From a virus (lineage: Duplodnaviria > Heunggongvirae > Uroviricota > Caudoviricetes): a DNA stretch of 64,000 bases. The notes beneath the pieces are model-generated. The model did no database searches. It was given only the letters and a program-made list of their open reading frames with translations, and was not told the origin of the DNA. This document shows, piece by piece, positions 27,686 to 59,776 of the stretch. The stretch lies in IMG/VR virus record IMGVR_UViG_3300028603_000003; one strand, written 5' to 3'. Made by a program: the position numbers and the translations under genes. Position 1 is the stretch's first letter; the number at the start of each line of letters is the position of its first letter.

Positions 27686-27723
27686 AAAAGGGGCTTGACG
27701 GCCCCTTTTTCTTTTGGTACAAT
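27686..27723 (+). promoter_or_regulatory. PeSL-like cassette copy 1: terminator-type hairpin whose loop carries the -35 (TTGACG), then a 17-nt spacer and TACAAT
   Basis: aaaaaggggcTTGACGgccccttttttcttttggTACAAT. Identical core at 38796, 44834, 55579 and 59739. Confidence 0.6.
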
Positions 27724-28445
27724 ACTCAAAAATCAAACAGGGAACCAAAAACACGAAAGCGCCGAAACAAATGGTTGATGTGGTTAAGGGATTCCCGAGA
27801 TGCCATCGGACGCCGCAGCGCCGCAGCAGCGGAAGTAACGTTTGTTCTTAGTTAATCTTTTTGGTGGAAGAAAATGCAAGAGAAAAAGTTACATGTTTCT
27901 GACGTGCAACAGTTGTTGCACTTCAACAACAAGTACAACCAGATTAGGAAGTATGTTATGCTTCTGACTCCAAATGGCCCAATGTACTTTCAGCAGAGAT
28001 GGTATGGACAATGAGCGAGCAATCGTGTCTGAGCATTCCTGAAGTGGTTATCGCCGCGATCTTCAAGCGGCACTCCAAAGACTATAACAAAATCAAGAAC
28101 CGCTTTGGTGGGATGACTTCTTTCTACGGAGTCAACTACACTTCCCTCTTGGATTTTTTGGACTCTGAGGGAATTCAATACAAAATTTTTGACGGCTATG
28201 CGGAAACCATTGACTTTAATGGGTGATTGAGATGTTAACTCTGAATAAGATCAACTCCATCGCAAGGGCCAGAAATCCACACTTCTCTTTGTATAAGGGA
28301 GAGGGATACTTCTACCTTGTCTTTGACGACGGAGTTAGGTTCGAAACTTTATCAGTCTGCGTCTATAGAATAAATCACTTGACACTTGAGCAATGGCAAG
28401 ATAGAATAACCGAACTTGAAGACTTGATCAAATCCTGAATTTATT

Positions 28446-28886
28446 ATGCTAGTCTATCGAATTGAAAATGCTTCTGGTGGTGGTATGTATCGCCCAGACG
28501 GACTTTCTTCCTACACTTGTCCATTGGAAGAAATCATGGATGAGTTCCCCGACCCTCACATGTATGAAGAAGCTCTGAGTAATATTTTGGGGCGGGACGA
28601 ATATGACTACAGTTCTATACACGTTTCCCCTGCTGATGACTTTCCGAGGGAAGTTTGGCGATACCTACCTTGCACCGTTCAGTGGGAGTACAGTTTCGCC
28701 TTTCCGACAATTGTCTCACTTCTTTCTTGGGTTTATCTGAAGGAATGGAGAGAAGAGCTTCATCGCAGGGGATTTAAAGTTTCGGTGTATGAAGCGGAAG
28801 CAATCGTTTCGGATTCTGGCGCTCAAGCAATCTTCAAGAAGAAGCACTCCAAGAAAGTTGGTGAGATTTCTTTACTTGAAGTTTAA
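28446..28886 (+). CDS. hypothetical protein
   Basis: ORF only. Three ORFs under 90 aa at 27999..28438 are not listed separately. Confidence 0.4.
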   Translation: MLVYRIENASGGGMYRPDGLSSYTCPLEEIMDEFPDPHMYEEALSNILGRDEYDYSSIHVSPADDFPREVWRYLPCTVQWEYSFAFPTIVSLLSWVYLKEWREELHRRGFKVSVYEAEAIVSDSGAQAIFKKKHSKKVGEISLLEV

Positions 28887-28921
28887 AGTGTTGGATAACT
28901 TAAAATCAATGGGAGTTTGAC

Positions 28922-29230
28922 ATGCCTGTAGGTCCAGAAGTAACGCAAGAAATTGACAAAGCTTGGTTGAATTATGCTTTCGAAGAAATTGACAGAAAGC
29001 TAAAAAGCACAAAGTGGGTTTCCGAACACAGGATGGAATCTATTGATGGAAAAACCCAATGTTGGAAATTCTTGCTGGCCCGAGCCGGGGTTTCTAGCTC
29101 GACAATCGCAGAGCTAGCAGTAGCGTACAAAAAAGTTGGTTGGACTGAGGTACTAACTGAAGTTGTTGAAGAGTCTGGTCGTCCACCTACAGTCTCGGTT
29201 ATTCTTAAATTTGTGGAAAACAAGGAATGA
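28922..29230 (+). CDS. hypothetical protein
   Basis: ORF only. Confidence 0.35.
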   Translation: MPVGPEVTQEIDKAWLNYAFEEIDRKLKSTKWVSEHRMESIDGKTQCWKFLLARAGVSSSTIAELAVAYKKVGWTEVLTEVVEESGRPPTVSVILKFVENKE

Positions 29231-29475
29231 AAATGAAAAACCCTTTGTCTAAACTTACTCTTTGGCTTAAGCGAGACACTACTAGATGGTTCGAACTATT
29301 CTGCTATTTTTGGGTAGCGGGTTGTTTTGTGCTTCTCGCTTACTATAGGCCGGATGTTGTGATTGCGATGCTTTTTTCCGTCATGACCTGTGCTTCTATC
29401 GGAGTTGTATTCTTCAAAGTTATGAAGTATTTGGACTCTAGGATTGGCTCTTCAAAGGGGAGTGAAACGAAATGA
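29227..29475 (+). CDS. small membrane protein
   Basis: Two hydrophobic segments. Confidence 0.35.
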   Translation: MKMKNPLSKLTLWLKRDTTRWFELFCYFWVAGCFVLLAYYRPDVVIAMLFSVMTCASIGVVFFKVMKYLDSRIGSSKGSETK

Positions 29476-29897
29476 ATCTATTTGCTAGTAGCACACCAGA
29501 GTTTATCGATCTTTCCAGAAAGTTCACTGAGCTAAAGATTGAAAACGCAAGGCTGAATGTCGAACTAAAAGAAGAGCGAGAGAAGCACAAGTATGCCGAG
29601 TATGCCGCTCTCGCTGCCGAAGCAGAAGCACGAGATGTGGACACTCTAAACGAGTTACTGAGACAGGCTTACGAAGAATTAGATCACATCAAACAGGTAG
29701 AATTTCCTAGACGAGTCGAGCTTGTCGCAAAAGGCTGGCGGGAAAAGGTATCTAGACTTGAATCCGAACTCGAAGAACTCAAAAAATTGAATCTAGAAGG
29801 CAATACCAAGGTAAGCTGTGTGGTTGAACCTGCATTCGAGTTTAAGTATACCAGAAACATTCTCGAACAGGAGATGAGCAAATACCATGAAGACTGA
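29472..29897 (+). CDS. hypothetical coiled-coil protein
   Basis: ORF with heptad-like charged repeats. Confidence 0.4.
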   Translation: MNLFASSTPEFIDLSRKFTELKIENARLNVELKEEREKHKYAEYAALAAEAEARDVDTLNELLRQAYEELDHIKQVEFPRRVELVAKGWREKVSRLESELEELKKLNLEGNTKVSCVVEPAFEFKYTRNILEQEMSKYHED

Positions 29898-30258
29898 AGA
29901 ACTCGTTTATAACGCAATGTGCAAAGCTTTTAACCTAGGCCAAAGGAATCGGGAATTGTCTTCTTCAGAAGACTTTACTTGGAAAAAGGCAGACGAACTC
30001 ATAGACGAGTTCATTAAGCTTGCAGAAAACACAAAAAAACTGGTTAGCTCCCAAGAAGAAAAACAAGAACCGCAGATTGCTTTGTCTGGTCGGAAATTTT
30101 CTCTTTCGAAAACCGGAGATTTCATCCAAGACGAAAAGTTTGACTTCGACGCTGGCTTTAAGCTTAGCGGAGATTTCGTGTCCGAAGAACAACAGCGAGC
30201 GTATGCCAATATGATTGTCGATGCTCTAAACGAAGCTGCCAAGGGGGCCGCAAAATGA
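29887..30258 (+). CDS. hypothetical protein
   Basis: ORF only. Confidence 0.4.
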   Translation: MKTEELVYNAMCKAFNLGQRNRELSSSEDFTWKKADELIDEFIKLAENTKKLVSSQEEKQEPQIALSGRKFSLSKTGDFIQDEKFDFDAGFKLSGDFVSEEQQRAYANMIVDALNEAAKGAAK

Positions 30259-30518
30259 AAGTAGTTGTCAATAAAGAAGATTGTTTTAAGCCCGTCACGT
30301 TCAACATCACCTGCGAAACTCCAGAAGAGTTGTTTGCACTTTGGTACAGGTTTAACCTCCATTACAATAAGGTGATTTCTAATTCTAAATTTTCTACCAC
30401 AAGGCAGGGAAGGGTTCCAACCGGAATTATAGATGACCGCGTCCCTAATACCTACCCCGTCTTTGATGCCATTAATGAGGTTGTTTGCGAATATTTGGAA
30501 AGTCTTGAGGATAATTGA
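30255..30518 (+). CDS. hypothetical protein
   Basis: ORF only. Confidence 0.35.
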   Translation: MKVVVNKEDCFKPVTFNITCETPEELFALWYRFNLHYNKVISNSKFSTTRQGRVPTGIIDDRVPNTYPVFDAINEVVCEYLESLEDN

Positions 30519-30521
30519 ACT

Positions 30522-30764
30522 ATGGAAAATCAATCAAACAATATCAAAAAAGAAATCGTGCAGACCGCTCTCAATCTGTTAGAATATGATGATGCGTTTC
30601 CCCAAGTTGGTATGGGGATGAACTATCGAACCGCAGTCTTCGAGGCCATTAAAGTCGTCAAGTCACAGGCACTAACATTTGGCTTGACACTTGAAGTGGA
30701 TTCTACTATAATTGACTCTGCTGTGAACGAAGTAGCTGAACAACGATCATACAGAATTCGATAA
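30522..30764 (+). CDS. hypothetical protein
   Basis: ORF only. Confidence 0.35.
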   Translation: MENQSNNIKKEIVQTALNLLEYDDAFPQVGMGMNYRTAVFEAIKVVKSQALTFGLTLEVDSTIIDSAVNEVAEQRSYRIR

Positions 30765-30783
30765 TAAACGCACAGGAGCAGTC

Positions 30784-31050
30784 ATGGACACCAAGCTGAA
30801 TCACGCACAAGTCAAGCGAGAAGTAATCGAAGACTTGATCAAAGTTTTCGAGGCTTCTGGGGTTGAATACACTTGCAGGGCAGTTTTCGTTTCTGTGGTG
30901 CGCCCAAAAGCGAACTACTACGCCCACACCCTGTGGGCTGCTGGCTACACATTCAGCAGGTCCAGTTATTTTCCAGTAACTGCGGCACGAGACAACTTTG
31001 CGAGTTGGGCGGCGAACGAATACCATGAGAGGTACTTTAACTTTAAATGA
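30784..31050 (+). CDS. hypothetical protein
   Basis: ORF only. Confidence 0.35.
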   Translation: MDTKLNHAQVKREVIEDLIKVFEASGVEYTCRAVFVSVVRPKANYYAHTLWAAGYTFSRSSYFPVTAARDNFASWAANEYHERYFNFK

Positions 31051-31268
31051 AGTCTCTCTCCATTTGGATTGTCGTCATCTTGGCCGCGTCATATGCTGTC
31101 GGCTACTTCTTCGAGCGACAGATTAACGATTCACAAAAATATTGTGAATCTTATGGTGGTAAGCTGGAGAAGACTCGCAGAGGATATGTTTGTCTCCGCG
31201 AAGACGGAACAGAAATTGACATTTGGACAAAGCCGAGTCATAATATTTGGAGTGTAATTAATGGATAA
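31047..31268 (+). CDS. small protein with N-terminal TM/signal segment
   Basis: N-terminus SLSIWIVVILAASYAVGYFF. Confidence 0.35.
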   Translation: MKSLSIWIVVILAASYAVGYFFERQINDSQKYCESYGGKLEKTRRGYVCLREDGTEIDIWTKPSHNIWSVING

Positions 31269-31411
31269 TCAAACAAAAGAAATCATTGCCCAACTTCGCG
31301 AACAGTTCAAAAAGGAAGTTTCAGCTAAAAACTCTTGGGGCAAGAACGAAGTCCTTGTCATGTACGACAAGGTTGTTGCGGATGTGCTAATCTCTCGGCT
31401 CGGACAGTAAA

Positions 31412-31951
31412 ATGGCAGAAACCTTCATCATTTCTGACACGCACTGGGGCCACGCCAACTCTCTAACTTTTAAGAAGTCAGACGGATCGCCGCTGCGAGA
31501 CTTCGCTTCTGTGCAAGAAATGGACGAGCACATGGTCCAGTGTTGGAACTCTGTTGTACGTCCACAAGACAAAGTCATCCATCTTGGGGATGTGGTGATT
31601 AACAAGAAGTATCTGGAGATTCTTCGTCGTCTGAACGGAAAGAAGAAGCTTATCATGGGAAACCATGACATCTTCGACATGAAGTATTATACCGAACACT
31701 TCTACGAGATGAAGGCTTATCGAGTATTTGACAAGCACATCATGAGCCACATTCCGGTCCACAAGTCTTCCATCGGTCGATTTGTAGCAAACGTTCACGG
31801 ACACACTCACTCGGAGAAGGTTCTACTCGAAGACGGCACCGTCGATCCGTATTACATTTCGATGTGTGTTGAGCAAAAGCACGTCAACTACACTCCGGTT
31901 CCTTGGTATCGGGTAAAAGAAATTCTAAAGGCTCGGGGGATTTATGACTGA
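31412..31951 (+). CDS. calcineurin-like metallophosphoesterase (YfcE/MJ0936-like)
   Basis: Metal-binding motifs ISDTHWGH, HLGDVV, GNHD, GHTH. Confidence 0.7.
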   Translation: MAETFIISDTHWGHANSLTFKKSDGSPLRDFASVQEMDEHMVQCWNSVVRPQDKVIHLGDVVINKKYLEILRRLNGKKKLIMGNHDIFDMKYYTEHFYEMKAYRVFDKHIMSHIPVHKSSIGRFVANVHGHTHSEKVLLEDGTVDPYYISMCVEQKHVNYTPVPWYRVKEILKARGIYD

Positions 31952-32162
31952 AGCGTTTGAAGACCTTAAACAAAAGGTCGCCAAGAAAGTCAAGCTAATC
32001 CAGAAGCACAAAGAAGAGCTTAGCAAGCTGTACGCTAAGTGTACGCACGAAGAGACATACAAGAAAGAGTGGTATTTTGCGGAGGACGGTTACAACAGCT
32101 ATACAACTATTGACACTAAGTGTGTTGTATGTGATAAAGTTCTACAGTCTGTAGACAGGTGA
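31944..32162 (+). CDS. hypothetical protein with CxxC pair
   Basis: ORF only. Confidence 0.3.
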   Translation: MTEAFEDLKQKVAKKVKLIQKHKEELSKLYAKCTHEETYKKEWYFAEDGYNSYTTIDTKCVVCDKVLQSVDR

Positions 32163-32172
32163 TTCCGCATAG

Positions 32173-32382
32173 ATGACAATTATTCGACTCTTCCACGATG
32201 TTGCCAACTTTGACGAACTCTTAGACACGATGCCCGAAGAAACCTTGACTGAGTTTAAGGACATGTGGTTTAATGATCTTCGGGATTATGAGCACGAGAC
32301 AGACGAAAGTTTTAAGGACTCTGCCAACAATATCCTTTCTTATTTCGGAAGTTGTTGGCAGAGTCCTCGAATTTTCTTATGA
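32173..32382 (+). CDS. hypothetical acidic small protein
   Basis: ORF only. Confidence 0.3.
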   Translation: MTIIRLFHDVANFDELLDTMPEETLTEFKDMWFNDLRDYEHETDESFKDSANNILSYFGSCWQSPRIFL

Positions 32383-32432
32383 CCATAAACTAGACGCATT
32401 TGTCTGGCTTTGTCAATATGTTGGGACAGACT

Positions 32433-32888
32433 TCATTGATTAAAAAGAAACTCCCTAAACTCTGCGATGTCTTGTTTGCCGAGCGCCCAGTTCTTGTAAA
32501 TTTTACTTCTAATATTGGAATTTAAAAAATCTTCGGACTCTAGTGCGCCATAAAAGTATAACGCGAACTCTTCACAGTAAAGCAAGCTTGACTTAGAGTA
32601 ACAAAAATTTAGAATCTCTCTGGTAAAATTTTGTGTCCCTCCGTCTTCGGCAATCATTTCCTTGATTGTGGGTGACGAAGACCAATAGGTTTTCCAGTCA
32701 GATTCTTTTTTTATTTTCTTCTTTACACCCTTCACCGTCTTGGTTCCGGCAGCTTGAAGTAGCTTCTTGCCAATGTATCTCTTTCCAGTTGGCTTGTGCA
32801 CGATCAGATAGATGAAGCCTAGAGCTTCGCGGTGCTTTTCTGGGATGTCTTCTAGAGTGTTGATTTCTTGATCTTTGTATTTCCACAT
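32433..32888 (-). CDS. GIY-YIG domain protein (free-standing homing endonuclease candidate)
   Basis: GFIYLIVHKPTGKRYIGKK matches GIY-x10-YIG. It is the only convincing minus-strand gene in a + strand block, as expected for an HE insertion. Confidence 0.5.
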   Translation of the reverse strand: MWKYKDQEINTLEDIPEKHREALGFIYLIVHKPTGKRYIGKKLLQAAGTKTVKGVKKKIKKESDWKTYWSSSPTIKEMIAEDGGTQNFTREILNFCYSKSSLLYCEEFALYFYGALESEDFLNSNIRSKIYKNWALGKQDIAEFREFLFNQ

Positions 32889-32896
32889 GTTATAAT
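32868..32896 (+). promoter_or_regulatory. sigma70-like promoter TTGATC-N17-TATAAT for the downstream + strand genes
   Basis: Lies inside the 5' end of the minus-strand GIY-YIG gene. Confidence 0.4.
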
Positions 32897-32929
32897 GTAC
32901 CTCAAGTTAGATGATTGGAGAAACTATTT

Positions 32930-33190
32930 ATGAAGCTGGTAGACGTGAATGAGCACACCCTGCGAGATGTTGGAGTCAAACAATGTTTCGAATGGGTAAA
33001 GACTGGAAAGTGGAAGTTTGTGCATTATCTACAATGGCTTAAGGCTAAAGGCATCAATAGTGATAGGGACGTGTTTTTCGGGAGAACTTTAATTCACACC
33101 CCGAACGCGGCACTATCCTACGAGCGAATCAAAGTTGGGTTGTGGGGCACTCGACAGTTCACTATTTGGCTCAATCAAAAGTTTTTCTGA
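32930..33190 (+). CDS. hypothetical protein
   Basis: ORF with ATG 32930. Confidence 0.35.
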   Translation: MKLVDVNEHTLRDVGVKQCFEWVKTGKWKFVHYLQWLKAKGINSDRDVFFGRTLIHTPNAALSYERIKVGLWGTRQFTIWLNQKFF

Positions 33191-33200
33191 GGATATAGAA

Positions 33201-33407
33201 ATGGAATTCGTAAAGGTTGTTGTGACTTCGAAGAATCATCTTGAAGCAAAAGATCGAAAGAAGATTATTAACTTCCTCAATCGAGAGATTTCTTATCCTT
33301 GGGGGATTAAGTTTCAAGTTGGTGTACCTCGGGTTGAGATAAGCGAACATCCAAATCTTTCAAATGAATCGACCGAGCGTTTCCTAGACATTCTCCATGG
33401 AATCTAA
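33201..33407 (+). CDS. hypothetical protein
   Basis: RBS gaggatatagaa before ATG. Confidence 0.35.
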   Translation: MEFVKVVVTSKNHLEAKDRKKIINFLNREISYPWGIKFQVGVPRVEISEHPNLSNESTERFLDILHGI

Positions 33408-33606
33408 TCTTAGTTCAACAAAGCCGAAGTTGTATAGGGTCGGCACAGTACACATCGGCCAAACAGAATTTCTTGAATCAGACGTTGTGGTTGGGTACAA
33501 TATCAGTGATGCCATAACACAGGCAGGAAAGCTATTCGAACTCGGCCACGACAAAACATTCATGGCTGAACAATTACTATGGAGTTACAATGTCAGAATT
33601 TTTTAA
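33397..33606 (+). CDS. hypothetical protein
   Basis: ORF only. Confidence 0.3.
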   Translation: MESNLSSTKPKLYRVGTVHIGQTEFLESDVVVGYNISDAITQAGKLFELGHDKTFMAEQLLWSYNVRIF

Positions 33607-33925
33607 GAGCGATTACAACGAAACAAAGAAGGCGCAGTTTGAACGAGATGTGGACGCGGTTCTAAAGGACATTGGCGATCTTCTTAAGAAGAAGAACGCT
33701 TCTTATGGTGACAGTGTTCTTGACCCTGTCCGAATCTTCTCTAAGGCTAGTCCAACAGAGCAGCTAAGGGTCAGAATTGACGATAAGCTATCGCGACTTG
33801 CTCGTGGAGAACCGGGGCTTATCAAGGAAGACGTTGTTAAAGACCTGATTGGGTATCTGATTATCGACCAGATTGCTGCACTCAGAGCGGTCAGAGCGGA
33901 AAAAGGTTGGAATCCAGCAGGCTAA
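33590..33925 (+). CDS. hypothetical protein (occupies the rpbA position upstream of gene 45)
   Basis: ORF. Positional analogy only. Confidence 0.35.
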   Translation: MSEFFKSDYNETKKAQFERDVDAVLKDIGDLLKKKNASYGDSVLDPVRIFSKASPTEQLRVRIDDKLSRLARGEPGLIKEDVVKDLIGYLIIDQIAALRAVRAEKGWNPAG

Positions 33926-36482: not shown

Positions 36483-36668
36483 ATGATGACTCATGAAGAA
36501 CTACTTGACTCGGAAATAGATAAGGCAATAGACAGTCTGCCAGAAGACATCGAAGCGATGTACGCAATGTTCGGAGACAGGCTTCCAAATCCAAATCAAT
36601 ACCCGAGATGCTTTCAACACTACGCTAAGCTTTACTTACATATGAAAAGGTTGAAGAATGAAATTTAA
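36483..36668 (+). CDS. hypothetical small protein
   Basis: ORF only. Confidence 0.3.
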   Translation: MMTHEELLDSEIDKAIDSLPEDIEAMYAMFGDRLPNPNQYPRCFQHYAKLYLHMKRLKNEI

Positions 36669-37452
36669 ACTAGTAGAATCTGGCAATCCATACACCAAAC
36701 AACTTTCCTTTGGCATTCGCAGTCTAGACGAAGAAAGAGGATTCAATCAAATTTGGTTGTACCTTTTTAATAGATTCTGGTACTGGAATATCGACAAGCA
36801 AATTGTCAAATCTCAGAAGAAGTGGGTTGACACTTCGCATTACGAATGGGCCACCAAGGACGAAAATGGAAAGTCTGGATACACAGACTATATTCAAGTA
36901 GAGTATAGCATTGCAATTCGAAACGACAGTATTTCTTTGCAATGTGGACCAAAGTTAGATTGTTGGCCGAACAAATATTCAAAGTACATCAGCTTTCCGT
37001 GGAAGGATGCCCGGACAACTTCTGTCACGTTCTTTGAATACAACCCAAAAACCAAGGAACTAAAGACGTTTAAGCGACTAGGAGAAGAAAAGACTCCCAT
37101 TCTCGAAATCATGGAAATAGAAAAGGAAGTTCCAAAGTTTAAGATTGCTTTTAATGATTACGACGGAACAGAGGTTGTAGCAACATGCTACGTCCAAGAG
37201 CGTAGATGGAAGTACGGTGTGAGGTGGACAAAGTTTCTTGGGCTGTTCCAAAAAGAAAACGTCCGCAGAGTTGTCTACTTCAGGTTCGACAAGGAAACCG
37301 GAACTGAAAAGGGTAGCTGGAAGGGCGGAACTCTTGGGTCTGGGTGTGACTTAGAAATTGGACAAGACCCCTTCGAGGCGTTTAAAATCTACGCTGCATC
37401 CAATAGCCATGACAAGCGACCTTTCACCAATGTAAGACTTCTAGAGGAATAA
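36658..37452 (+). CDS. hypothetical W-rich protein
   Basis: ORF only. Confidence 0.45.
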   Translation: MKFKLVESGNPYTKQLSFGIRSLDEERGFNQIWLYLFNRFWYWNIDKQIVKSQKKWVDTSHYEWATKDENGKSGYTDYIQVEYSIAIRNDSISLQCGPKLDCWPNKYSKYISFPWKDARTTSVTFFEYNPKTKELKTFKRLGEEKTPILEIMEIEKEVPKFKIAFNDYDGTEVVATCYVQERRWKYGVRWTKFLGLFQKENVRRVVYFRFDKETGTEKGSWKGGTLGSGCDLEIGQDPFEAFKIYAASNSHDKRPFTNVRLLEE

Positions 37453-38248: not shown

Positions 38249-38324
38249 AAGGCCAAGTTGAAGTGCCTTGGACTTCTAAAACTTCAACAAACTTTACTTG
38301 CTTAATATAAAGGAGTATTATAAA

Positions 38325-38768
38325 ATGACCACACTATTCGATCTACACAAGGCTACCACTCGGGACATCAAGAGCATTTTTGATCACGCCGAGGAACTTC
38401 TTCGCGCTACACAAAAGCAAATGGAAATCAAGTGGCCCCCATACGACATCGTCAAGACAGACGAAAACAAGTATGTAATCCGACTCGCTGTTGCAGGTTT
38501 CGGGGAACAAGACATTGAGATTGATGTTTCTGGCGATGTTCTAACTGTCAAGGCTGATGCGAAGAAGACTGAGACAGACGAAGAAGTAATCTACAAGGGA
38601 ATCGCAAATCGAGGTTTTGTTCGCGCTTGGACACTTAACGACAAGGTTGAGGTCAAGAACGCGACACTCGTTAACGGAATGCTATCAGTTTATCTAGAAA
38701 AGATGAAGGAAATTAATGATAGCTTCAAGGTTCCCATCAACGGGAAACAAACTCTTCTGAACGAGTGA
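38325..38768 (+). CDS. small heat-shock protein (Hsp20/IbpA-like)
   Basis: Aligns with E. coli IbpA: YPPYN..DENHYRIAIAVAGF versus WPPYDIVKTDENKYVIRLAVAGF. ACD motif GIANRGFVRAW. Confidence 0.8.
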   Translation: MTTLFDLHKATTRDIKSIFDHAEELLRATQKQMEIKWPPYDIVKTDENKYVIRLAVAGFGEQDIEIDVSGDVLTVKADAKKTETDEEVIYKGIANRGFVRAWTLNDKVEVKNATLVNGMLSVYLEKMKEINDSFKVPINGKQTLLNE

Positions 38769-38795: not shown

Positions 38796-38834
38796 AAAAA
38801 GGGGCTTGACGGCCCCTTTTTCTTTTGGTACAAT
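38796..38834 (+). promoter_or_regulatory. PeSL-like cassette copy 2
   Basis: Identical hairpin/-35/spacer/TACAAT, followed by the cctctaCATCAACT leader. Confidence 0.6.
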
Positions 38835-38864
38835 CCTCTACATCAACTCGCAACTGAAACTGAC

Positions 38865-39128
38865 ATGAACAAAAATCTTAGATTTCACAGTGAAATTTGC
38901 AGCTTCGCAGTGATCACCGCGTATATTGAGGCAGGTCACGGAAAGCGAGCAGCAGCTAAGGCGGGAAGAGTTGTTTCTGGGCTTCTCGTTGCGGCAGCGA
39001 AATCTGGGGAGATTGCTGCAATCCGCAGACACAATCCGGTAACTGGGGCGAGCACCTCCTATGTAATTTCTGAAGAACAAGTAGAAAAAATCCGCGCAGA
39101 AGCAATTGCTCGCGCAGGTCGCAGATAA
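38865..39128 (+). CDS. hypothetical protein
   Basis: First ORF after the promoter cassette. Confidence 0.4.
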   Translation: MNKNLRFHSEICSFAVITAYIEAGHGKRAAAKAGRVVSGLLVAAAKSGEIAAIRRHNPVTGASTSYVISEEQVEKIRAEAIARAGRR

Positions 39129-40669: not shown

Positions 40670-40698
40670 TTGACAGCGGGGTCGCGTGGGGATATAAT
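40670..40698 (+). promoter_or_regulatory. consensus sigma70 promoter TTGACA-N17-TATAAT
   Basis: Followed by tcactCCATCAACTAcac and a ggag RBS for a 55-aa GTG-start ORF (40731..40895). Confidence 0.5.
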
Positions 40699-40910
40699 TC
40701 ACTCCATCAACTACACAACTGGAGCGAATCGTGACCCAAGACAACACCCATTGGATGTACTATGACAATCAACTGGTGGTGCCCTTTGTTGTGGCTGACG
40801 ATGGAACTCTGGTTGCAACCCACTGGGAACAATTCGCAACCTTCTTCAACAACGAATTCGAAACCATTTCTGCCGGTATTGAATACTGGGCTTAATCAAA
40901 AGGAAATATT

Positions 40911-43417: not shown

Positions 43418-43460
43418 ATCTTGATGGGAAGGGGGAGGCGAAAGTTTCCCCTTTGTTTAT

Positions 43461-44158: not shown

Positions 44159-44451
44159 TTAAGCAATATCGCAAAAAGCCTGTTGTGATTGAGGCAGTAA
44201 AATTCGAATACTCCGAAGCGGGCATTAAGGAATTGCAAGATTTCTGTGGTAAGTGTTTGGTCAAGTGGGGAAAGGTTCGCGGATTATCCGCCGTTGGGTG
44301 GGCGCACATCGGCACGCTTGAAGACGGAGATAAGAACTCCTTTCAAGTAGAGCACATTGCGACTGAAGGCGATTACATTGTTAAGGGGGTTTCTGGAGAG
44401 TTTTACGCCTGCAAGCCAGACATCTTCGAAAAAACTTACGAATCAATTTAA
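44155..44451 (+). CDS. hypothetical protein
   Basis: ORF only. Confidence 0.4.
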   Translation: MIKQYRKKPVVIEAVKFEYSEAGIKELQDFCGKCLVKWGKVRGLSAVGWAHIGTLEDGDKNSFQVEHIATEGDYIVKGVSGEFYACKPDIFEKTYESI

Positions 44452-44460
44452 AGGAATCAA

Positions 44461-44830
44461 AATGGAACTACTGATTGCATATGCCACTAACGTTCTGCTT
44501 TCTTGGGGAATCTACTTTGCGGTCGGACTGTGTGCAGTTGCCGTTGTGATGGCAACTGAAAGCGTGACCGCAGATAGTCTAGAAGCAATCGGGCTGAAGA
44601 AGCGAATCTACCAAGTAGTCGGATTCTGGTGGCTGGCTACACTCTTGTTCTGTGCATTCAGCCCTGCCAATACTCCCAAGCGAGAACACCACGACAAGGT
44701 AGAATTGAACCAGAAGATTGAAACCCAGAATCTAACTCGCGAGGCTCCACAAGTAGTTGATCGAACTCGAAAGCCAGAAAAGACTACGGAAGAGCGAAAG
44801 GAAGACTTCAAAGATTTGGTTAAGTATTAA
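44461..44830 (+). CDS. membrane protein
   Basis: Two TM segments. Internal Met of track ORF 44357. Confidence 0.4.
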
Positions 44831-44833
44831 TTT

Positions 44834-44871
44834 AAAAGGGGCTTGACGGCCCCTTTTTCTTTTGATACAAT
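44834..44871 (+). promoter_or_regulatory. PeSL-like cassette copy 3
   Basis: Same hairpin/-35, but -10 is gaTACAAT. Followed by cttcatcgtCAACTAacc. Confidence 0.6.
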
Positions 44872-44905
44872 CTTCATCGTCAACTAACCAAACGGGGAAA
44901 TTTAA

Positions 44906-45202
44906 ATGAGCGGCTACAAATTCAATGTTGGCGACAGAGTGAAATACGTCGGACCCTTTGCATACTGTGAAGAAAACGAATTGGGAACTGTGGTCCGCCT
45001 CGAATTAGGCGGATACCTGCTTGTGCGATGGGACGAAGATGGGTGTACTTGCATGGTCCAGAAAAGAAACGTCGTTAAACAATTTCCAAAACAGAGTCCC
45101 GATGAAATGACTGTCGGTGAATTAAAGAATATTTTGGCACAATACACTGAAGATGTTGGCGTGTCAAAAGCTCTCTCAGAAATTTTTAACCGCACCTATT
45201 GA
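44906..45202 (+). CDS. hypothetical protein
   Basis: ORF downstream of the cassette. Confidence 0.4.
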   Translation: MSGYKFNVGDRVKYVGPFAYCEENELGTVVRLELGGYLLVRWDEDGCTCMVQKRNVVKQFPKQSPDEMTVGELKNILAQYTEDVGVSKALSEIFNRTY

Positions 45203-45227
45203 CTGAAACAAATCTTCAAAGTATAAT
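45199..45227 (+). promoter_or_regulatory. consensus sigma70 promoter TTGACT-N17-TATAAT
   Basis: Followed by tctctCCATCAACTAacc. Confidence 0.55.
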
Positions 45228-45261
45228 TCTCTCCATCAACTAACCAAAAGGAAATACGAAA

Positions 45262-45477
45262 ATGTCCAGCAACATTCCTCTTCGCGACTTTCTGGCCGCA
45301 TCCATCAGCAACAGCGACTTCAACCTTGACGGAGACACCGACCTTGCGGCAGAACTAGTCGGTCGCCCCCTCCCAAGCGGCGCAATCGAACAGATCGAGT
45401 GGGCATTTGAACTAGATGCCAAAATTCGCTACATGCGAGCAGACGCAATGATCCGGGTTTCTCGCTCAACTGATTGA
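45262..45477 (+). CDS. hypothetical small protein
   Basis: ORF only. Confidence 0.35.
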   Translation: MSSNIPLRDFLAASISNSDFNLDGDTDLAAELVGRPLPSGAIEQIEWAFELDAKIRYMRADAMIRVSRSTD

Positions 45478-45502
45478 CAGTCACGAACAATTGCTGTAGA
45501 AT
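45474..45502 (+). promoter_or_regulatory. sigma70 promoter TTGACA-N17-TAGAAT
   Basis: Followed by tcttcaCATCAACTAccc. Confidence 0.5.
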
Positions 45503-45535
45503 TCTTCACATCAACTACCCAATCAAGGAAAGATC

Positions 45536-45919
45536 ATGAAGGCCACCATCTTCCGCGCTGCCCACTACTACGGTGCTTCTACTTACGAGGTTGAACCTGA
45601 AGTGTTTGAATGCCACTACGCTCCTAGCCTGAAGATTGACCCTGACCTTCCTGACGGCGAGTTGTTCGAAGCCTGTCTCCACAGTATGGCTATTCGCGCT
45701 AGTAGCACTGGTCAAATCGCCCACCACAAGGGTTCGATGTCTCGTAACGGAAGTGTTCGTCGCAGTGAACGCGGGTTTGTGACTGTCAAGGGCGACGGCT
45801 GGATTTGCCAGTTTGCTTCTCCCGAAGTTTTGGAACTCGAAAAGAGCTTTTTGAAGTCTGGCGATTATCAGAAGGCGGTCGCCATTCGTGAACCGATTTC
45901 TGTCAGCCATTTCAACTAA
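45536..45919 (+). CDS. hypothetical protein
   Basis: ORF only. Confidence 0.4.
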   Translation: MKATIFRAAHYYGASTYEVEPEVFECHYAPSLKIDPDLPDGELFEACLHSMAIRASSTGQIAHHKGSMSRNGSVRRSERGFVTVKGDGWICQFASPEVLELEKSFLKSGDYQKAVAIREPISVSHFN

Positions 45920-45953: not shown

Positions 45954-45988
45954 CCTCTTCATCGACTGACACCTGAAGGAACGCAAAA

Positions 45989-47955: not shown

Positions 47956-47990
47956 CTTCTCCATCAACTACCAATCACGAGGAACGAAAA

Positions 47991-52843: not shown

Positions 52844-52872
52844 TTGACAAGCCTCCGTAGTTTGGATATAAT
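52844..52872 (+). promoter_or_regulatory. consensus sigma70 promoter TTGACA-N17-TATAAT
   Basis: Followed by ttgtCCATCAACTAcgg. Confidence 0.55.
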
Positions 52873-52902
52873 TTGTCCATCAACTACGGAGGCTTTTTCA
52901 AT

Positions 52903-55046: not shown

Positions 55047-55577
55047 ATGAGCAAACTAACTACAGCAGGAACCCAAATCACTAAAGACCTTTACCTTTCA
55101 CACATGGGGGACAAAGCGGCTGTGCTGAATGCGGGGACTTGGGAATTTACTACAGTAGATGTTTTCTATGATGTGGAAAACGATGGCGCAAATGTTGATG
55201 AAGTTCTAAAGGCGTATTTTGATCTGACTGGTCGAGGGGCAGAAATGCCATCTGGCGAGCCTGTAGTTCGATACGACCGCATCACACGTTTCAACCCTGT
55301 GACCCGAAAGGTTATGAACTCGGTTCTAACTGTTGCTGCGAACATCAACTATGCAGAAATGACTATGACTTTTGGTTGGTCCGTGTGTTCACCACAAGAC
55401 AACTTTTGCAAGGAAGTTGGACGAGAGCAGGCGATTTCTAGGCTGAACTCTGAAGATGCAGTAACTATCCCATACAATGCCGGAATGTCAATTCGCGACA
55501 ACATCTATTGCCGACGCGATGAAAATGAGGGTGTGTGGAATCGAGGGTTGACTCGACATCTAAACGGACAGTTTTAA
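55047..55577 (+). CDS. hypothetical protein
   Basis: ORF only. Confidence 0.4.
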   Translation: MSKLTTAGTQITKDLYLSHMGDKAAVLNAGTWEFTTVDVFYDVENDGANVDEVLKAYFDLTGRGAEMPSGEPVVRYDRITRFNPVTRKVMNSVLTVAANINYAEMTMTFGWSVCSPQDNFCKEVGREQAISRLNSEDAVTIPYNAGMSIRDNIYCRRDENEGVWNRGLTRHLNGQF

Positions 55578-55578
55578 A

Positions 55579-55616
55579 GAAAGGGGCTTGACGGCCCCTT
55601 TTTCTTTTGGTAAGAT
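55579..55616 (+). promoter_or_regulatory. PeSL-like cassette copy 4 (-10 TAAGAT)
   Basis: Same hairpin/-35/spacer, but the -10 differs and there is no CATCAACT leader. Confidence 0.55.
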
Positions 55617-55639: not shown

Positions 55640-56689
55640 ATGGGTGGAAACGCGCTAAATTTTGAGACTCGCAGGATTGAGTCTCAAAAGGAATTTTACA
55701 ATCTATACGAAAAGATTGTAAAGAAGCTTTCGAAAATTGGCATTTACGGGTGTCTGATTCCATTCTATGCATCCAAAGAATCTTTTGGTGACATGGACAT
55801 TCTAGTTAACAAGGGACTAAACTTTCCTGATAATTGGACTGATAAGGTTGTGTCTGCGTTCAATCCAAAGTCAACATTCAAAAACGGAAGCTGCTTTTCT
55901 TTCGACTTCGAAGACTTCCAGATTGACCTGATCCTTTCCCCTAGCGAAGAGTTTTCTTATAGCTACAACTACTTTGCATACAACGACCTCGGAAACTTTA
56001 TCGGTAGGACTGCGCATCGTCTGGGATTCAAGCACGGCCACGATGGTTTGTGGTATACTCTGCGAGATGAAGAAAATCCAGACCGAGTTGTAAAAGAAAT
56101 TCTGGTAACTAGAGATTATTCTGATGCTCTAGAATTTCTAGGATTCCTATATTTGAGAGGACTTCCAAAGTTTAAAACTCCAGAAGATATTTTCGAGTTT
56201 GCTGCTTCTTCAAAGTATTTTGATCCTAAACAATTTCTTCTTGTCAACCGATCATATGCGGCAAGAGTACGAGACAAGAAGCGCAAGATGTACAACGGCA
56301 TGCTAGAATGGATTAGAGGTCGTTGGCCCGATTTGAAAGACGATGACGCCCCAGAACCCGTTGACAAGGGAGAACACCTCCAGAGGGCTTTTAAACAATT
56401 CCCTGAGTTCGAAAATGCATACAACGAAGCCTACGCACAACACCAACACACAAAAGCCCTCAAACAAAAGTTTAATGGTGAGTTTGTTGCTTTGATGTTC
56501 AACGAGAAGCCGACAGGCAAGGAACTGGGCAACATTATGAAAGAGCTTCGAGAAAAGATCGAGAGGTACAATCTAGAGCAACTTATTATTGACATTGACG
56601 AAGCGCAGTGCTATAATCTGTTTTATAATGTCCTTTTGAAAAATAACAGTTACAGAGAAAGAGACTTTCTAAACTCTCTGGAGTGCTGA
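55640..56689 (+). CDS. putative nucleotidyltransferase-fold (Pol-beta superfamily) protein
   Basis: YASKESFGDMDILV ([GA]S-x-GD-x-D) and a downstream DFQIDLIL third acidic strand. Weak. Confidence 0.35.
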   Translation: MGGNALNFETRRIESQKEFYNLYEKIVKKLSKIGIYGCLIPFYASKESFGDMDILVNKGLNFPDNWTDKVVSAFNPKSTFKNGSCFSFDFEDFQIDLILSPSEEFSYSYNYFAYNDLGNFIGRTAHRLGFKHGHDGLWYTLRDEENPDRVVKEILVTRDYSDALEFLGFLYLRGLPKFKTPEDIFEFAASSKYFDPKQFLLVNRSYAARVRDKKRKMYNGMLEWIRGRWPDLKDDDAPEPVDKGEHLQRAFKQFPEFENAYNEAYAQHQHTKALKQKFNGEFVALMFNEKPTGKELGNIMKELREKIERYNLEQLIIDIDEAQCYNLFYNVLLKNNSYRERDFLNSLEC

Positions 56690-57633: not shown

Positions 57634-57643
57634 GGAAGAAAGG

Positions 57644-57949: not shown

Positions 57950-58350
57950 TGAAATACATTAAAAACAAAGCTGAACTTTCTATCCGAGATGCTGACACAA
58001 ACAAAGTTCTTCTGAAGCTCAATTCGGCTCTAGTGGAACAACGTAAACTTTCCACGGCCAATGTCATTGAGATTCTAGACCTTCATGCTGAGCGTCTTGG
58101 CCTTCTGGAAGATATGAGTTCTTGTGATCCTACGAATACCGTTGAGAAGCTTGTTCTTCGCAGGCTTGCTGAAGAACACCGAGACATCCAATTCAAGCTA
58201 CAAGAAGCGTGGGGCTTCGAGAAAAACCACCTCTATCACGATTGGTTCGAAGTTCCCTACTGCACCTGTCCGAAAGAAGATAATCGAGAGCGGAAGGGAA
58301 CCTCCTATCAGATCATCAATCTGGGCTGTCCGATTCACGGCGAACTGTAA
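57949..58350 (+). CDS. hypothetical protein with CxxC...C..H cluster
   Basis: ORF only. Confidence 0.35.
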   Translation: MKYIKNKAELSIRDADTNKVLLKLNSALVEQRKLSTANVIEILDLHAERLGLLEDMSSCDPTNTVEKLVLRRLAEEHRDIQFKLQEAWGFEKNHLYHDWFEVPYCTCPKEDNRERKGTSYQIINLGCPIHGEL

Positions 58351-58370
58351 CCAAACTAGGATAAATAAAA

Positions 58371-58676
58371 ATGAAACTAAAGCTTTTGGCCCTTGGCCTA
58401 GCAACAACACTGTCTCTTTCAGCTAACGCTTTGGAGTTTGCCACTATCCAAATGGACAATGGGTCTTATGTGATCCTGACAGACATTAAATGTCCGTATG
58501 GCAAAACATCTGAGCCGAAGTTTGGGTATGTAGTGAAAAACACAAACGATTACGTTGACAATGTTTGTTGGATGGTAGTTCAAGATCGAATTCTTGTTGT
58601 TACCCGCCAAGGCGAATATCAAGACTATCCGGTTGAAGTCACCAAGCCTATCGGAGACAACAAGCCAAAACTATAA
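58371..58676 (+). CDS. secreted small protein
   Basis: Signal peptide LLALGLATTLSLSANA. Confidence 0.4.
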   Translation: MKLKLLALGLATTLSLSANALEFATIQMDNGSYVILTDIKCPYGKTSEPKFGYVVKNTNDYVDNVCWMVVQDRILVVTRQGEYQDYPVEVTKPIGDNKPKL

Positions 58677-58685
58677 AGGAAACAC

Positions 58686-59447
58686 ATGGCAATCGATTTA
58701 GACATAGATTCAATCACCAGCGTCGGCGATCTTTCTTCTGCCATTAGCTCGACCCTAAGCCCTCAGATTTCAAGCTTCTCGGAAGAAGTATCTGGCGGAT
58801 TGGGGGAGCTTGTCATGGGAGCAGGAGGAAATTGCGACATATTTGGTGGCGCAATGGGGATGGCTAGAAGTGCCTCCGAAGGATTCAGAAGCAATTTTAA
58901 AGAATTAACCAAGAACGTTCAAGGGGCATTCGCAACTGTTGCAACTTTGGCTGGAACAATGATCAAAGCGGTTTCAGGTACACTTGGGCTAGTGCAACAA
59001 AAGCTATCAGAATTTTCCGCGTGGCTATCAACACAAGCAGAATCTGTGCTAAACTCAGCTAAGAGTGTTTTGAACTCTCTAAAGTCTGTTGTAAATAGTT
59101 CTTTCTCCGCAGTGGCCTCTGCTATGGCTTCGTGCATTTCTTTCCTACCAGAAATAAAAAACAAGATGCTTGAAGCTGTGTCTGCCATTCCAGTTAGAAG
59201 TTGCTCTCCCATTGCTGGAGCAATCGGAAACATTGGTTTTGGTGCAGGCATTGATTCTGTTGTTAGTCTTGTGACTGAACCGAATGTTGGAAAATTTTCG
59301 GAAATTGCCTTGAGTGGTTTGACTGGAAGTTTGGAAGGAATTTATACTTCAGTCAACGACATCGTCGGCGACATTCCAGACCCAAACAACACTAACAGCC
59401 AATTGTCGTCTATCATGGCGAACATTGACTCGTTGATGGGAGCTTGA
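58686..59447 (+). CDS. hypothetical Ser/Ala/Gly-rich repetitive protein
   Basis: SVLNSAKSVLNSLKSVVNS repeats. Confidence 0.4.
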   Translation: MAIDLDIDSITSVGDLSSAISSTLSPQISSFSEEVSGGLGELVMGAGGNCDIFGGAMGMARSASEGFRSNFKELTKNVQGAFATVATLAGTMIKAVSGTLGLVQQKLSEFSAWLSTQAESVLNSAKSVLNSLKSVVNSSFSAVASAMASCISFLPEIKNKMLEAVSAIPVRSCSPIAGAIGNIGFGAGIDSVVSLVTEPNVGKFSEIALSGLTGSLEGIYTSVNDIVGDIPDPNNTNSQLSSIMANIDSLMGA

Positions 59448-59448
59448 C

Positions 59449-59739
59449 GTGCGAGGCATAGCTAGACTCGGGGACGCCACACAAGGAATCTGCTACTGTC
59501 ATGACAGTCCGATAAATGTAAGCGGAAAGATCATAACAGCTTCAGAGGATCACTTTACTAACGGCAGAGGGACCGCCAGACTTGGAGACTTGGTCATGGC
59601 TGATTGTGGTCACACTGGAAGAATCATTTCCGCCAAAGAAAATGAATTTGTCAACGGACGTGGAGTGGCTAGACTAGCAGATCAGTTTGAAGGATGTTAC
59701 AAAGGAAAAATAATTTCTGCATCAGAGGACACATTTTAA
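59449..59739 (+). CDS. PAAR-repeat protein (gp5.4-like spike tip)
   Basis: Three repeats of ARLGD / GRGTARLGD / GRGVARLAD, about 96 aa like T4 gp5.4. GTG start. Confidence 0.6.
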   Translation: MRGIARLGDATQGICYCHDSPINVSGKIITASEDHFTNGRGTARLGDLVMADCGHTGRIISAKENEFVNGRGVARLADQFEGCYKGKIISASEDTF

Positions 59740-59776
59740 AAAGGGGCTTGACGGCCCCTTTTTCTTTTGGTACAAT
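59739..59776 (+). promoter_or_regulatory. PeSL-like cassette copy 5
   Basis: Identical to copy 2 and followed by cctctCCATCAACTAgac. Coordinates approximate (plus or minus 1). Confidence 0.6.

What the first reader, a model, noticed from the sequence alone, without database searches (positions are those of the whole stretch)
27686..59776. Five identical hairpin-promoter cassettes (PeSL-like) scattered through the early region
The 38-nt core aaaaaggggcTTGACGgcccctttttcttttggTACAAT occurs at about 27686, 38796, 44834, 55579 and 59739. It is a terminator-type hairpin whose loop and 3' stem contain a -35 hexamer. A 17-nt spacer built of the hairpin's own T-run follows, then a -10. Each cassette therefore terminates upstream transcription and re-initiates. 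This resembles the 'promoter-early stem-loop' modules proposed to mediate modular gene shuffling in T4-type genomes. Identical copies give substrates for homologous recombination.
Basis: partly seen in the sequence, partly recalled or inferred. Interest (0 to 1): 0.6.

Follow-up and report, generated by a model that had tools for sequence, protein, structure and literature searches.

The report
Combined terminator-promoter cassettes in T4-like phage
Five near-identical 39-base cassettes in an uncultured T4-like phage each pack a transcription stop hairpin and a restart promoter into one intergenic gap; this matches an already described element (PeSL), and related phages differ by gene swaps that begin at two of the cassettes.

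Summary
There are five copies on the + strand (27685, 38796, 44833, 55578, 59738). Three are identical over 39 nt, two differ at 2-3 positions, and all share a 30-nt invariant core. None is expected by chance. Each fills the gap between a stop codon and the next gene. Each forms a 10-11 bp hairpin whose loop is the -35 hexamer TTGACG. The 3' arm plus T-run form the 17-nt spacer, followed by a TGn-extended -10.

The window is a divergent T4-like phage (gp45/gp44 clamp proteins, RegA, RNR, RnlA). The elements fit the published PeSL definition (Arbiol 2010, Comeau 2014), subclass "stem-loop overlapping -35".

New comparative support:
- Relatives keep the hairpin through compensatory stem changes.
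- A -10 sits at the right spacing in 9 of 15 unrelated contexts found by the hairpin alone.
- Homology with relatives breaks just after the -10 (27685) or in the leader (38796).
- One relative carries a chimeric promoter formed by recombination between two neighbouring promoter-leader repeats, which removes one ORF.

Three cassettes show no breakpoint. Promoter and terminator activity are inferred, not measured.

Verdict: new members of a known kind, modest interest.

The parts
27685..27723 (+). Cassette 1. A5-GGGGC / TTGACG loop (-35) / GCCCC-T5 hairpin, T-run spacer, TGgTACAAT. It starts 8 nt after the stop of the dCMP deaminase gene (27254-27676). It lacks the CCATCAACTA leader, and about 150 nt separate it from the next called gene.
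   Evidence: Homology with relative L001 ends at 27727, just after the -10: 2144 bp in the window against 242 bp in L001.
38796..38848 (+). Cassette 2 with leader CCTCTACATCAACT. It lies after the Hsp20 gene (38298-38768) and before ORF 38865-39128.
   Evidence: L088/L089 (Hsp20 83% aa) carry the cassette with loop TTGACT but lack ORF 38865-39128. That breakpoint falls at 38848, inside the leader. Distant relative L055 has a hairpin-promoter with stem GGCAC/GTGCC after its Hsp20 homolog.
44833..44885 (+). Cassette 3 (TAAAAGGGGC..., TGaTACAAT) with leader CTTCATCGTCAACTA. It starts 2 nt after the stop of ORF 44357-44830 and precedes ORF 44906-45202.
   Evidence: It is conserved in L071 with both flanks collinear, so there is no breakpoint here.
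55578..55616 (+). Cassette 4 (AGAAAGGGGC..., -10 TAAGAT, no CATCAACTA leader). It starts directly after the stop of ORF 55047-55577. The downstream gene is 55640-56689, preceded by the SD sequence AGGAG.
   Evidence: L057 (about 72% nt identity) has a cassette at the same site with a compensated stem (GGGGGC/GCCCCC), -10 TAGAAT and a 17-nt spacer kept.
59738..59790 (+). Cassette 5 with leader CCTCTCCATCAACTA. It overlaps the stop codon of the PAAR-motif gene (59449-59739). The downstream ORF starts at 59812.
   Evidence: It is conserved at the same site in L078 (87% nt, flanks collinear) and L057.
45199..45516 (+). Two hairpin-less promoters, P45199 (TTGACT-17-TATAAT) and P45474 (TTGACA-17-TAGAAT). 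They share the CATCAACTA leader and flank ORF 45262-45477.
   Evidence: L071 has one chimeric promoter: the left part matches P45199 and the right part matches the P45474 leader. The crossover lies inside CATCAACTA(A/C)CC and the ORF is absent.
20229..20290 (+). Same class, different geometry. TTGACT-18-TAGAAT with a 14-bp hairpin (20241-20274) whose loop holds the -10, followed by TTTTTCTTTTT.
   Evidence: MFE -21.3 kcal/mol for the folded 81-nt stretch, z -3.4
52844..52900 (+). Same class, different geometry. A 12/12 consensus promoter whose spacer and leader form a long hairpin enclosing the -10, followed by TTTTT.
   Evidence: MFE -35.8 kcal/mol for the folded 76-nt stretch, z -9.2
4439..4495 (+). 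Same class, different geometry. The terminator hairpin AAGCCCGC...GCGGGCTT with its T-run lies immediately upstream of TTGATA-17-TATACT.

Best explanation
Each cassette is a composite intrinsic terminator and sigma70-type early promoter of a T4-like phage, that is, a PeSL of the 'stem-loop overlapping the -35' type.

How it works:
- RNA polymerase arriving from the upstream gene transcribes AAAAAGGGGC-UUGACG-GCCCCUUUUUCUUUU. This folds into a G+C-rich hairpin followed by a U-tract, and the polymerase terminates.
- On the duplex DNA the same bases read as an A-tract at -45 to -41 (UP-like), a -35 TTGACG (the loop), a 17-bp spacer (3' arm plus T-run) and a TGn-extended -10.
- Host sigma70 holoenzyme therefore re-initiates about 7 nt after the -10. 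Its own transcript lacks the hairpin.
- The cassettes insulate successive early transcription units.

Second role: the cassettes, and the CATCAACTA leader shared with other early promoters, are 30-60 nt of near-identical DNA in otherwise unrelated intergenic contexts. They serve as crossover points for homologous recombination that inserts, deletes or replaces gene modules.

Shown here: sequence anatomy, structural conservation, co-occurrence of the -10, and breakpoints in relatives. Inferred: actual termination, initiation, and the recombination mechanism.
For: 1. Non-random copies. Five same-strand copies against 0 expected. All lie between a stop codon and the next start.

2. Terminator features. 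The stem has 10-11 bp with 5 G-C pairs and a 4-nt loop, then 9 T in 10 nt. The 56-nt stretches around the hairpin fold at -16 to -21 kcal/mol. These five are the best-scoring terminator-like sites in both scans covering 27-64 kb; 43429 matches them on pair counts, and no other + strand site has 5 G-C pairs in more than 7 pairs.

3. Selection on pairing.
- The L057 orthologous site has stem GGGGGC/GCCCCC.
- L055, at the syntenic site after its Hsp20 homolog, has GGCAC/GTGCC.
- L076 and L082 have GGGGG/CCCCC.
- On alignment A3, 3 pairs change on both sides and no cell is unpaired among the five G-C pairs.

4. Promoter features. All five read TTGACG-17-TA(C/A)(A/G)AT with TGn. Among 15 distinct contexts outside the window clade, found only by the 21-mer hairpin, 9 have TAnnnT at 16-18 nt. 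The background rate is 5.2% and the binomial tail is 1e-8. Three of the five cassettes share the CATCAACT leader with consensus TTGACA-17-TATAAT promoters.

5. Recombination.
- Homology with L001 ends at 27727.
- L088/L089 lack ORF 38865-39128, with the junction in the leader.
- L002 diverges from L059 and from L066 within the leader.
- L071 carries a chimeric P45199/P45474 promoter and lacks ORF 45262-45477.

6. Published precedent. PeSL promoter and terminator activity and mini-circles were demonstrated in RB49/phi1 (PMC2839356). They were extended to T4/PST and KVP40/nt-1 (PMC4122927).
Against: - There are no transcript data, so termination and initiation are not shown.
- Copy 55578 has a weak -10 (TAAGAT). 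Copy 27685 lacks the common leader and sits about 150 nt from the next called gene.
- Three cassettes (44833, 55578, 59738) show no breakpoint in the available relatives.
- Other indels in the same comparisons lie at plain gene boundaries with no cassette. Indel ends are expected in intergenic DNA anyway, so enrichment at cassettes is only suggestive.
- Crossovers map just after the -10 or in the leader, not in the hairpin.
- The five copies are 4-11 kb apart, unlike the dense PeSL arrays of RB49.
- Most rows in the covariation alignment were found by exact hairpin match, so their invariance is by construction. Only four rows (L055, L076b, L082b, L088) and the L057 site at 763 (not in the alignment) are informative.
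Confidence: 0.78

Rival explanations
1. The elements are plain intrinsic terminators. The TTGACG loop and the downstream TACAAT resemble a promoter only by accident, or through copying of one ancestral terminator.
For: The hairpin plus T-run is a textbook terminator. Some contexts with the same hairpin have no -10: L056, L068 and the L058 family. Similar hairpins at 15436 and 43429 have no promoter.
Against: - The -10 occurs at 16-18 nt in 9 of 15 independent contexts against a 5% background.
- All five copies have a TGn extended -10.
- In diverged orthologous cassettes the spacer stays 17 nt and the -10 stays TAnnnT while other bases change (L055, L057).
- The leader is shared with 12/12 consensus promoters.
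Confidence: 0.07
2. The elements are promoters whose inverted repeat GGGGC/GCCCC around the -35 is an operator for a dimeric phage or host protein that switches early transcription off. Alternatively it is a cruciform sensor. In either case it is not a terminator.
For: The palindrome is centred on the -35. Arbiol et al. speculated that the GGGG...CCCC motif might bind a protein.
Against: - Stem sequence changes with compensation (GGCAC/GTGCC, GGGGG/CCCCC, GGGGGC/GCCCCC). This keeps pairing but changes the bases a protein would read.
- A sigma70 spacer has no need for the conserved T-run.
- The hairpins sit directly after stop codons.
- The same hairpin occurs in unrelated phage and bacterial contigs that would not share a regulator.
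Confidence: 0.07
3. The elements are selfish or site-specific mobile elements. The hairpin would be a structure-specific recombination site, comparable to an integron attC site, used by a dedicated recombinase to move single-gene cassettes. Regulation would be secondary.
For: Copies are identical in non-homologous contexts. Gene-sized indels start at cassettes. L076 and L082 each carry two cassettes 340-370 nt apart. The exact 21-mer occurs in many lineages.
Against: - Junctions lie in the -10-to-leader segment, not at the hairpin.
- One junction is between two promoters that have no hairpin.
- There are no target-site duplications.
- No recombinase gene was seen next to the cassettes in the proteins scanned; flanking genes are ORFans, Hsp20, a PAAR-motif protein and a deaminase. 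Not all neighbouring ORFs were scanned.
- The exact hairpin also occurs in bacterial contigs (gyrA, sufB) and in a family A DNA polymerase (PolA-type) phage contig. That fits convergence in a small sequence space: a 5-bp G/C stem plus a TTGACG loop.
Confidence: 0.05

Closest known systems
PeSL (promoter-early stem-loop) cassettes of coliphages RB49/phi1 (Arbiol et al. 2010, PMC2839356)
   Same: - Intergenic position, between the stop codon and the SD/ATG of the next gene.
- Near-consensus sigma70 promoter plus a G-run/C-run stem-loop.
- One described subclass has the stem-loop overlapping the -35.
- Multiple near-identical copies in regions of small ORFans.
- Indels between close relatives begin at the element.
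- A chimeric element is left after loss of a single ORF (RB49 ORF192 versus window ORF 45262-45477 in L071).
- Crossovers lie between the -10 and the ATG.
   Different: - Here one geometry (-35 exactly in the loop) is repeated five times almost verbatim, whereas RB49 has a mix of stems.
- The copies are 4-11 kb apart, not in dense arrays. The dense array at 44.8-48 kb consists mostly of hairpin-less promoters with the shared leader.
- Activity and mini-circles have not been tested here.
- The host and phage are uncultured.
PeSLs of Vibrio phages nt-1/KVP40 (Comeau et al. 2014, PMC4122927)
   Same: The stem consensus A3-4 G3-loop-C3 T3-4 closely resembles A5 G4 C-loop-G C4 T5. The -35 is TTGYVH with N17 spacing. 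These PeSLs were reported as highly conserved and associated with ORFan indels.
   Different: In the legend for the PST figure, to which the nt-1 legend refers, the stem-loops lie just upstream of the promoter. Here the -35 is inside the loop. I did not examine the nt-1 sequences themselves.
Hairpin-promoters of SP18/VR7/JS98-type T4-like coliphages (e.g. pEC-M719-6WT.2, between gene 41 and dmd)
   Same: AAAAAGGGGCT-TAC-AGCCCCTTTTT carries cTTACA in or at the loop, with 17 nt to TATAAT, followed by ATCAACTAC 6 nt after the -10.
   Different: - The -35 is of the T-even type (TTTACA/TGTACA).
- There is only 80-84% similarity over 50-57 nt, and it is not clear whether this reflects homology or convergence.
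- These sites are not annotated as PeSLs in the record.
Canonical bidirectional intrinsic terminators
   Same: A G+C-rich stem is flanked by an A-tract and a T-tract, and both strands fold equally well.
   Different: An ordinary terminator carries no promoter. Here a -35 sits in the loop and a -10 lies 17 nt downstream.

Membership tests
PeSL (Arbiol 2010 / Comeau 2014) | Sigma70-like early promoter: -35 and -10 hexamers about 17 nt apart. | tested here: met
   TTGACG-17-TACAAT in four copies and TAAGAT in one. All five have TGn before the -10.
PeSL (Arbiol 2010 / Comeau 2014) | Stable stem-loop, often G-run/C-run, within or next to the promoter. Five positions are allowed, including overlap of the -35. 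| tested here: met
   The stem is 10-11 bp with 5 G-C pairs and the loop is the -35. The surrounding 56-nt stretches fold at -16 to -21 kcal/mol. The definition was read.
PeSL (Arbiol 2010 / Comeau 2014) | Intergenic position: stop codon of the upstream gene on the 5' side and SD plus start codon of the next gene on the 3' side, same strand as the genes. | tested here: met
   The hairpin starts 0-27 nt after the stop codon (at 59738 it overlaps it) in all five. The start codon lies 23-35 nt after the -10 in four copies. Copy 27685 is about 150 nt from the next called gene.
PeSL (Arbiol 2010 / Comeau 2014) | Repeated, well-conserved copies concentrated in hyperplastic regions rich in small ORFans of a T4-type genome. 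| tested here: met
   - The genome is T4-like: gp45/gp44 clamp proteins, RegA, RNR, RnlA.
- There are five copies in 27-60 kb and none in 1-27 kb.
- Downstream genes have no known function.
- Spacing is 4-11 kb, wider than in RB49.
PeSL (Arbiol 2010 / Comeau 2014) | Association with insertions, deletions or replacements between closely related genomes, including chimeric elements. | tested here: met
   Met at 27685 (L001), at 38796 (L088/L089), in L002 versus L059/L066, and for the P45199/P45474 chimera in L071. Not seen at 44833, 55578 or 59738.
PeSL (Arbiol 2010 / Comeau 2014) | Demonstrated promoter and terminator activity (lacZ fusions). | not testable with these tools
   This needs cloning or transcript mapping.
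PeSL (Arbiol 2010 / Comeau 2014) | Formation of mini-circles by recombination between neighbouring elements. | not testable with these tools
   This needs inverse PCR or read-level analysis of infected cells or metagenomes.
Rho-independent terminator | G+C-rich stem, 3-8 nt loop, U-tract directly after the stem, and pairing kept in evolution. | tested here: met
   Compensatory changes are seen in L055, L057 and L076/L082.
Rfam RNA families | Match to any curated family at the cassette positions. | tested here: not met
   The only hit in the window is a group I intron at 24857-25102.

The most novel reading that the evidence does not exclude
The hairpin-in-promoter cassette plus the fixed initial transcribed sequence (A)TCAACTA would be an ancient functional module shared by distant T4-like lineages, namely this uncultured clade and SP18/VR7-type coliphages. 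The leader would have its own function, for example a 5'-end signal for a phage factor or for capping or stability. The cassettes would act as dedicated linkers of an integron-like system of single-gene mini-circles, rather than as passive homology.
Probability: 0.08. Interest if true: 0.75.

Novelty: new member of a known kind. Interest (0 to 1): 0.3.

Why it matters
- It extends the PeSL model from three cultured pairs of T4-like phages to an uncultured environmental clade.
- It adds evidence the original papers lacked. Relatives keep the stem through compensatory changes. A -10 co-occurs with the hairpin in contexts that were found by the hairpin alone.
- It supplies a clean natural example of a chimeric promoter left by loss of one ORF.
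- Practically, it marks transcription-unit boundaries and likely recombination joints for annotating such phage genomes.
- The cassette is a 39-bp part that would both insulate and restart transcription, if the inferred activities hold.
- It does not reveal a new kind of system.

Tried and rejected
- Megablast of 8 kb of the window, and tblastn of the 567-aa ORF, against cultured phages gave no match. Identification came from gp44 at 55% aa identity or less.
- The search for related loci with the PAAR-motif protein found no relatives. With Hsp20 it found mostly cyanophage-type contexts without the cassette; only L088/L089 were informative.
- The permissive viral scan TTGACG-N5-TTTTTCTTTTG returned mostly coding-sequence coincidences. 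Only L001, L002, L054 and L055 were hairpins.
- The first look-up of encoding contigs failed because the ORF was taken from a TTG start.
- I considered that the exact 21-mer shared across lineages shows horizontal mobility. I rejected this as unproven because the hairpin also occurs in bacterial contigs (gyrA, sufB) and in a PolA-type phage contig. Closer relatives also show stem variants, which fits convergence.
- I considered that the L058 family keeps a cassette after its Hsp20 homolog. It does not.
- A literature search for the leader sequence found nothing relevant.
- The ATCAACTAC leader occurs at multiple places per genome only in SP18/VR7/TH44-type coliphages. In T4 only the SD-proximal part of the query matched.

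Full report
**Observation.** The quoted core, which is 39 nt rather than 38, matches five places on the + strand: 27685, 38796, 44833, 55578 and 59738. Shuffled sequence gives 0.00 expected matches. The 16-nt hairpin GGGGCTTGACGGCCCC occurs exactly five times. Three copies are identical. Copy 44833 has two mismatches, and copy 55578 has three, including a weaker -10 (TAAGAT). Alignment with flanks shows a 30-nt invariant core and unrelated sequence upstream. Exact tracts shared between copies are 30-44 nt. "Five identical" is therefore slightly overstated, but the repeat is real and far beyond chance.

**Anatomy.** RNAfold gives a 10-11 bp stem (A-U pairs plus five G-C pairs). A T.G pair closes the TGAC tetraloop, so the -35 hexamer TTGACG is the loop. 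The 3' arm GCCCC and the run TTTTTCTTTTGG make the 17-nt spacer. TGn precedes the -10 in all five copies. The opposite strand folds equally well, as in a bidirectional terminator.

In every copy the hairpin begins within 27 nt after the stop codon of a + strand gene, and in copy 59738 it overlaps the stop:
- dCMP deaminase (27254-27676)
- Hsp20 (38298-38768)
- an ORFan (44357-44830)
- an ORFan (55047-55577)
- a PAAR-motif protein (59449-59739)

In four copies the next start codon lies 23-35 nt after the -10. In both scans covering 27-64 kb these five are the best-scoring terminator-like sites. 43429 matches them on pair counts, and no other + strand site has five G-C pairs in more than 7 pairs.

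**Genome context.** The window has no close relative among cultured phages. It encodes gp45, gp44 (55% aa to Stenotrophomonas phage DLP_6 and to cyanophages), the small clamp-loader subunit (Pfam Phage_clamp_A), RegA, ribonucleotide reductase and RnlA. Almost all genes are on one strand. It is a divergent T4-like phage. Nearly identical contigs exist in public metagenomes.

**A wider promoter family.** The + strand carries many consensus sigma70 promoters. About ten share a conserved stretch after the -10, yCTCTCCATCAACTA. These include three of the five cassettes (38796, 44833 as a variant, 59738) and hairpless promoters at 40670, 45199, 45474, 45925, 47927, 52844 and 62668. Other composite terminator/promoter geometries are also present:
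- a hairpin with the -10 in its loop at 20229-20290
- a long hairpin enclosing the -10 at 52844-52900
- a terminator abutting a promoter at 4439-4495

This matches the range of geometries described for PeSLs.

**Evidence that the hairpin matters.** In L057, a relative with about 72% nt identity, the site orthologous to 55578 carries AAAGGGGGC-TTGAC-GCCCCCTTT. It has an extra G compensated by G->C in the 3' arm, with the 17-nt spacer and a TAGAAT -10 kept. In L055 the gene order small clamp-loader subunit, RegA, Hsp20 matches the window at 37-50% aa identity. There the Hsp20 homolog is followed by AAAGGCAC-TTGACG-GTGCCTTTTTCTTTTGG-TATACT, which has two compensated pairs. L076 and L082 have GGGGG/CCCCC variants. 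Counting on alignment A3 gives three pairs changed on both sides and no unpaired cell in the five G-C pairs. Most rows of that alignment were retrieved by exact hairpin match, so only these variants carry information.

**Evidence that the promoter matters.** A metagenome scan with the 21-mer AGGGGCTTGACGGCCCCTTTT, which does not include the -10, returned 32 loci. Outside the window's own clade they give 15 distinct contexts. Nine of these have TAnnnT 16-18 nt after TTGACG, against a background of 5.2% (binomial tail 1e-8). These contigs include T4-like phages (gp32, T4-type terminase), a family A DNA polymerase (PolA-type) phage contig, and bacterial contigs carrying gyrA or sufB. The design therefore recurs widely. 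The exact identity of the hairpin is better explained by a small sequence space than by mobility.

**Evidence for recombination at the cassettes.**
- L001 (84-94% nt identity to 26011-33888) is collinear up to 27727, four bases after the -10 of cassette 1. It then has 242 bp with one small ORF where the window has 2144 bp with about eight ORFs. The L001 cassette carries the common leader, which the window copy lacks.
- L088/L089 keep cassette 2 but lack ORF 38865-39128. The junction lies inside the leader, after CATCAACT.
- L002 shares its upstream gene with L059 and L066, and diverges from each within the leader.
- L071 has a single chimeric promoter. Its left part is identical to P45199 and its right part to the P45474 leader, and ORF 45262-45477 is missing. 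The crossover lies in the shared CATCAACTA(A/C)CC. This reproduces the RB49 ORF192/phi1 case.

Against over-reading: cassettes 3, 4 and 5 are flanked by collinear sequence in L071, L057 and L078. Several other indels end at plain gene boundaries.

**Comparison with the literature.** Arbiol et al. 2010 define PeSLs, show promoter and terminator activity, and demonstrate mini-circles. Comeau et al. 2014 extend them to T4/PST and KVP40/nt-1, the latter with A3-4G3-loop-C3T3-4 stems. All sequence-level defining features are met here. The experimental features cannot be tested with these tools. BLAST also finds the same design in SP18/VR7-type coliphages. There it is followed by ATCAACTAC at 5-9 promoters per genome, whereas in T4 only the SD-proximal part of the query matched.

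**Verdict.** These are new members of a known kind. The added value is comparative evidence for both functions and for module exchange in an uncultured clade. Interest is modest (0.3).

Noticed in passing
window 38835-38848, 40699-40715, 44872-44887, 45228-45244, 45503-45519, 45954-45968, 47956-47972, 52873-52888, 59777-59791, 62697-62710: A conserved stretch, yCTCTCCATCAACTA, starts right after the -10 of about ten early promoters, so the transcript probably begins at AUCAACUA. TAnnnT-N7-ATCAACT occurs 6 times against 0.16 expected. SP18/VR7-type coliphages have ATCAACTAC 6 nt after the -10 at 5-9 promoters per genome, whereas in T4 only the SD-proximal part of the query matched. Its function is unknown, and no paper was found by sequence search.
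   Followed up: partly
window 20229-20290; 52844-52900; 4439-4495: There are three more composite terminator/promoter elements with other geometries: the -10 inside the hairpin loop, a long hairpin enclosing the -10 and leader (-35.8 kcal/mol), and a terminator abutting a promoter.
   Followed up: partly
window 24857-25102 (and ORF 25097-25513): A group I intron (Rfam RF00028, 79 bits) lies between the two ribonucleotide reductase ORFs (22959-24884 and 25555-26658). A 138-aa ORF follows it and may be a homing endonuclease.
   Followed up: no
window 32433-32888 (- strand): This is the only called minus-strand gene in the stretch covered by L122/L123, and it encodes a SegE-type GIY-YIG homing endonuclease. 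An indel relative to L001 lies right beside it (32453-32505 in the window against 408 bp in L001).
   Followed up: no
window 36658-37452: An Acb3-like (CBASS inhibitor) gene lies in the clamp-loader/RegA gene cluster (Pfam PF25187, E 1e-32).
   Followed up: no
L056-L087 (metagenome loci): The exact 21-mer hairpin AGGGGCTTGACGGCCCCTTTT occurs in 32 metagenome stretches. These include T4-like phages, a PolA-type phage contig and bacterial contigs (gyrA, sufB). Most have a -10 at 17 nt, so a -35 in a terminator loop is a recurrent design.
   Followed up: partly
L076 (rc) 1112 and 1452; L082 (rc) 614 and 987: These unrelated contigs each carry two hairpin cassettes 340-370 nt apart, with GGGGC and GGGGG stems and their own shared leader GGGGTCAGAAACAACA.
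   Followed up: no
L071 about 1840-1845, against window 45536-45538: At the chimeric promoter in L071 the downstream gene has ACG where the window has its ATG start codon. This could be a sequencing error, a non-canonical start, or an inactivated gene.
   Followed up: no
window 43429-43454, against L071 about 455-480: A plain terminator hairpin at an indel boundary has different inner stem and loop bases in the relative (GGGGGAGGCGAAAGTTTCCCC against GGGGGAATCTTTCGCCCCCC). Whether pairing is kept was not checked.
   Followed up: no
L126 (Vibrio phage Kuja, Ackermannviridae) 605-655: AAAAAGGGGCT-TGTCAC-AGCCCCTTTTT has TTGTCA in the loop and TACTAT 17 nt downstream. The same design therefore occurs in a non-T4 phage family, at three places in that genome.
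   Followed up: no
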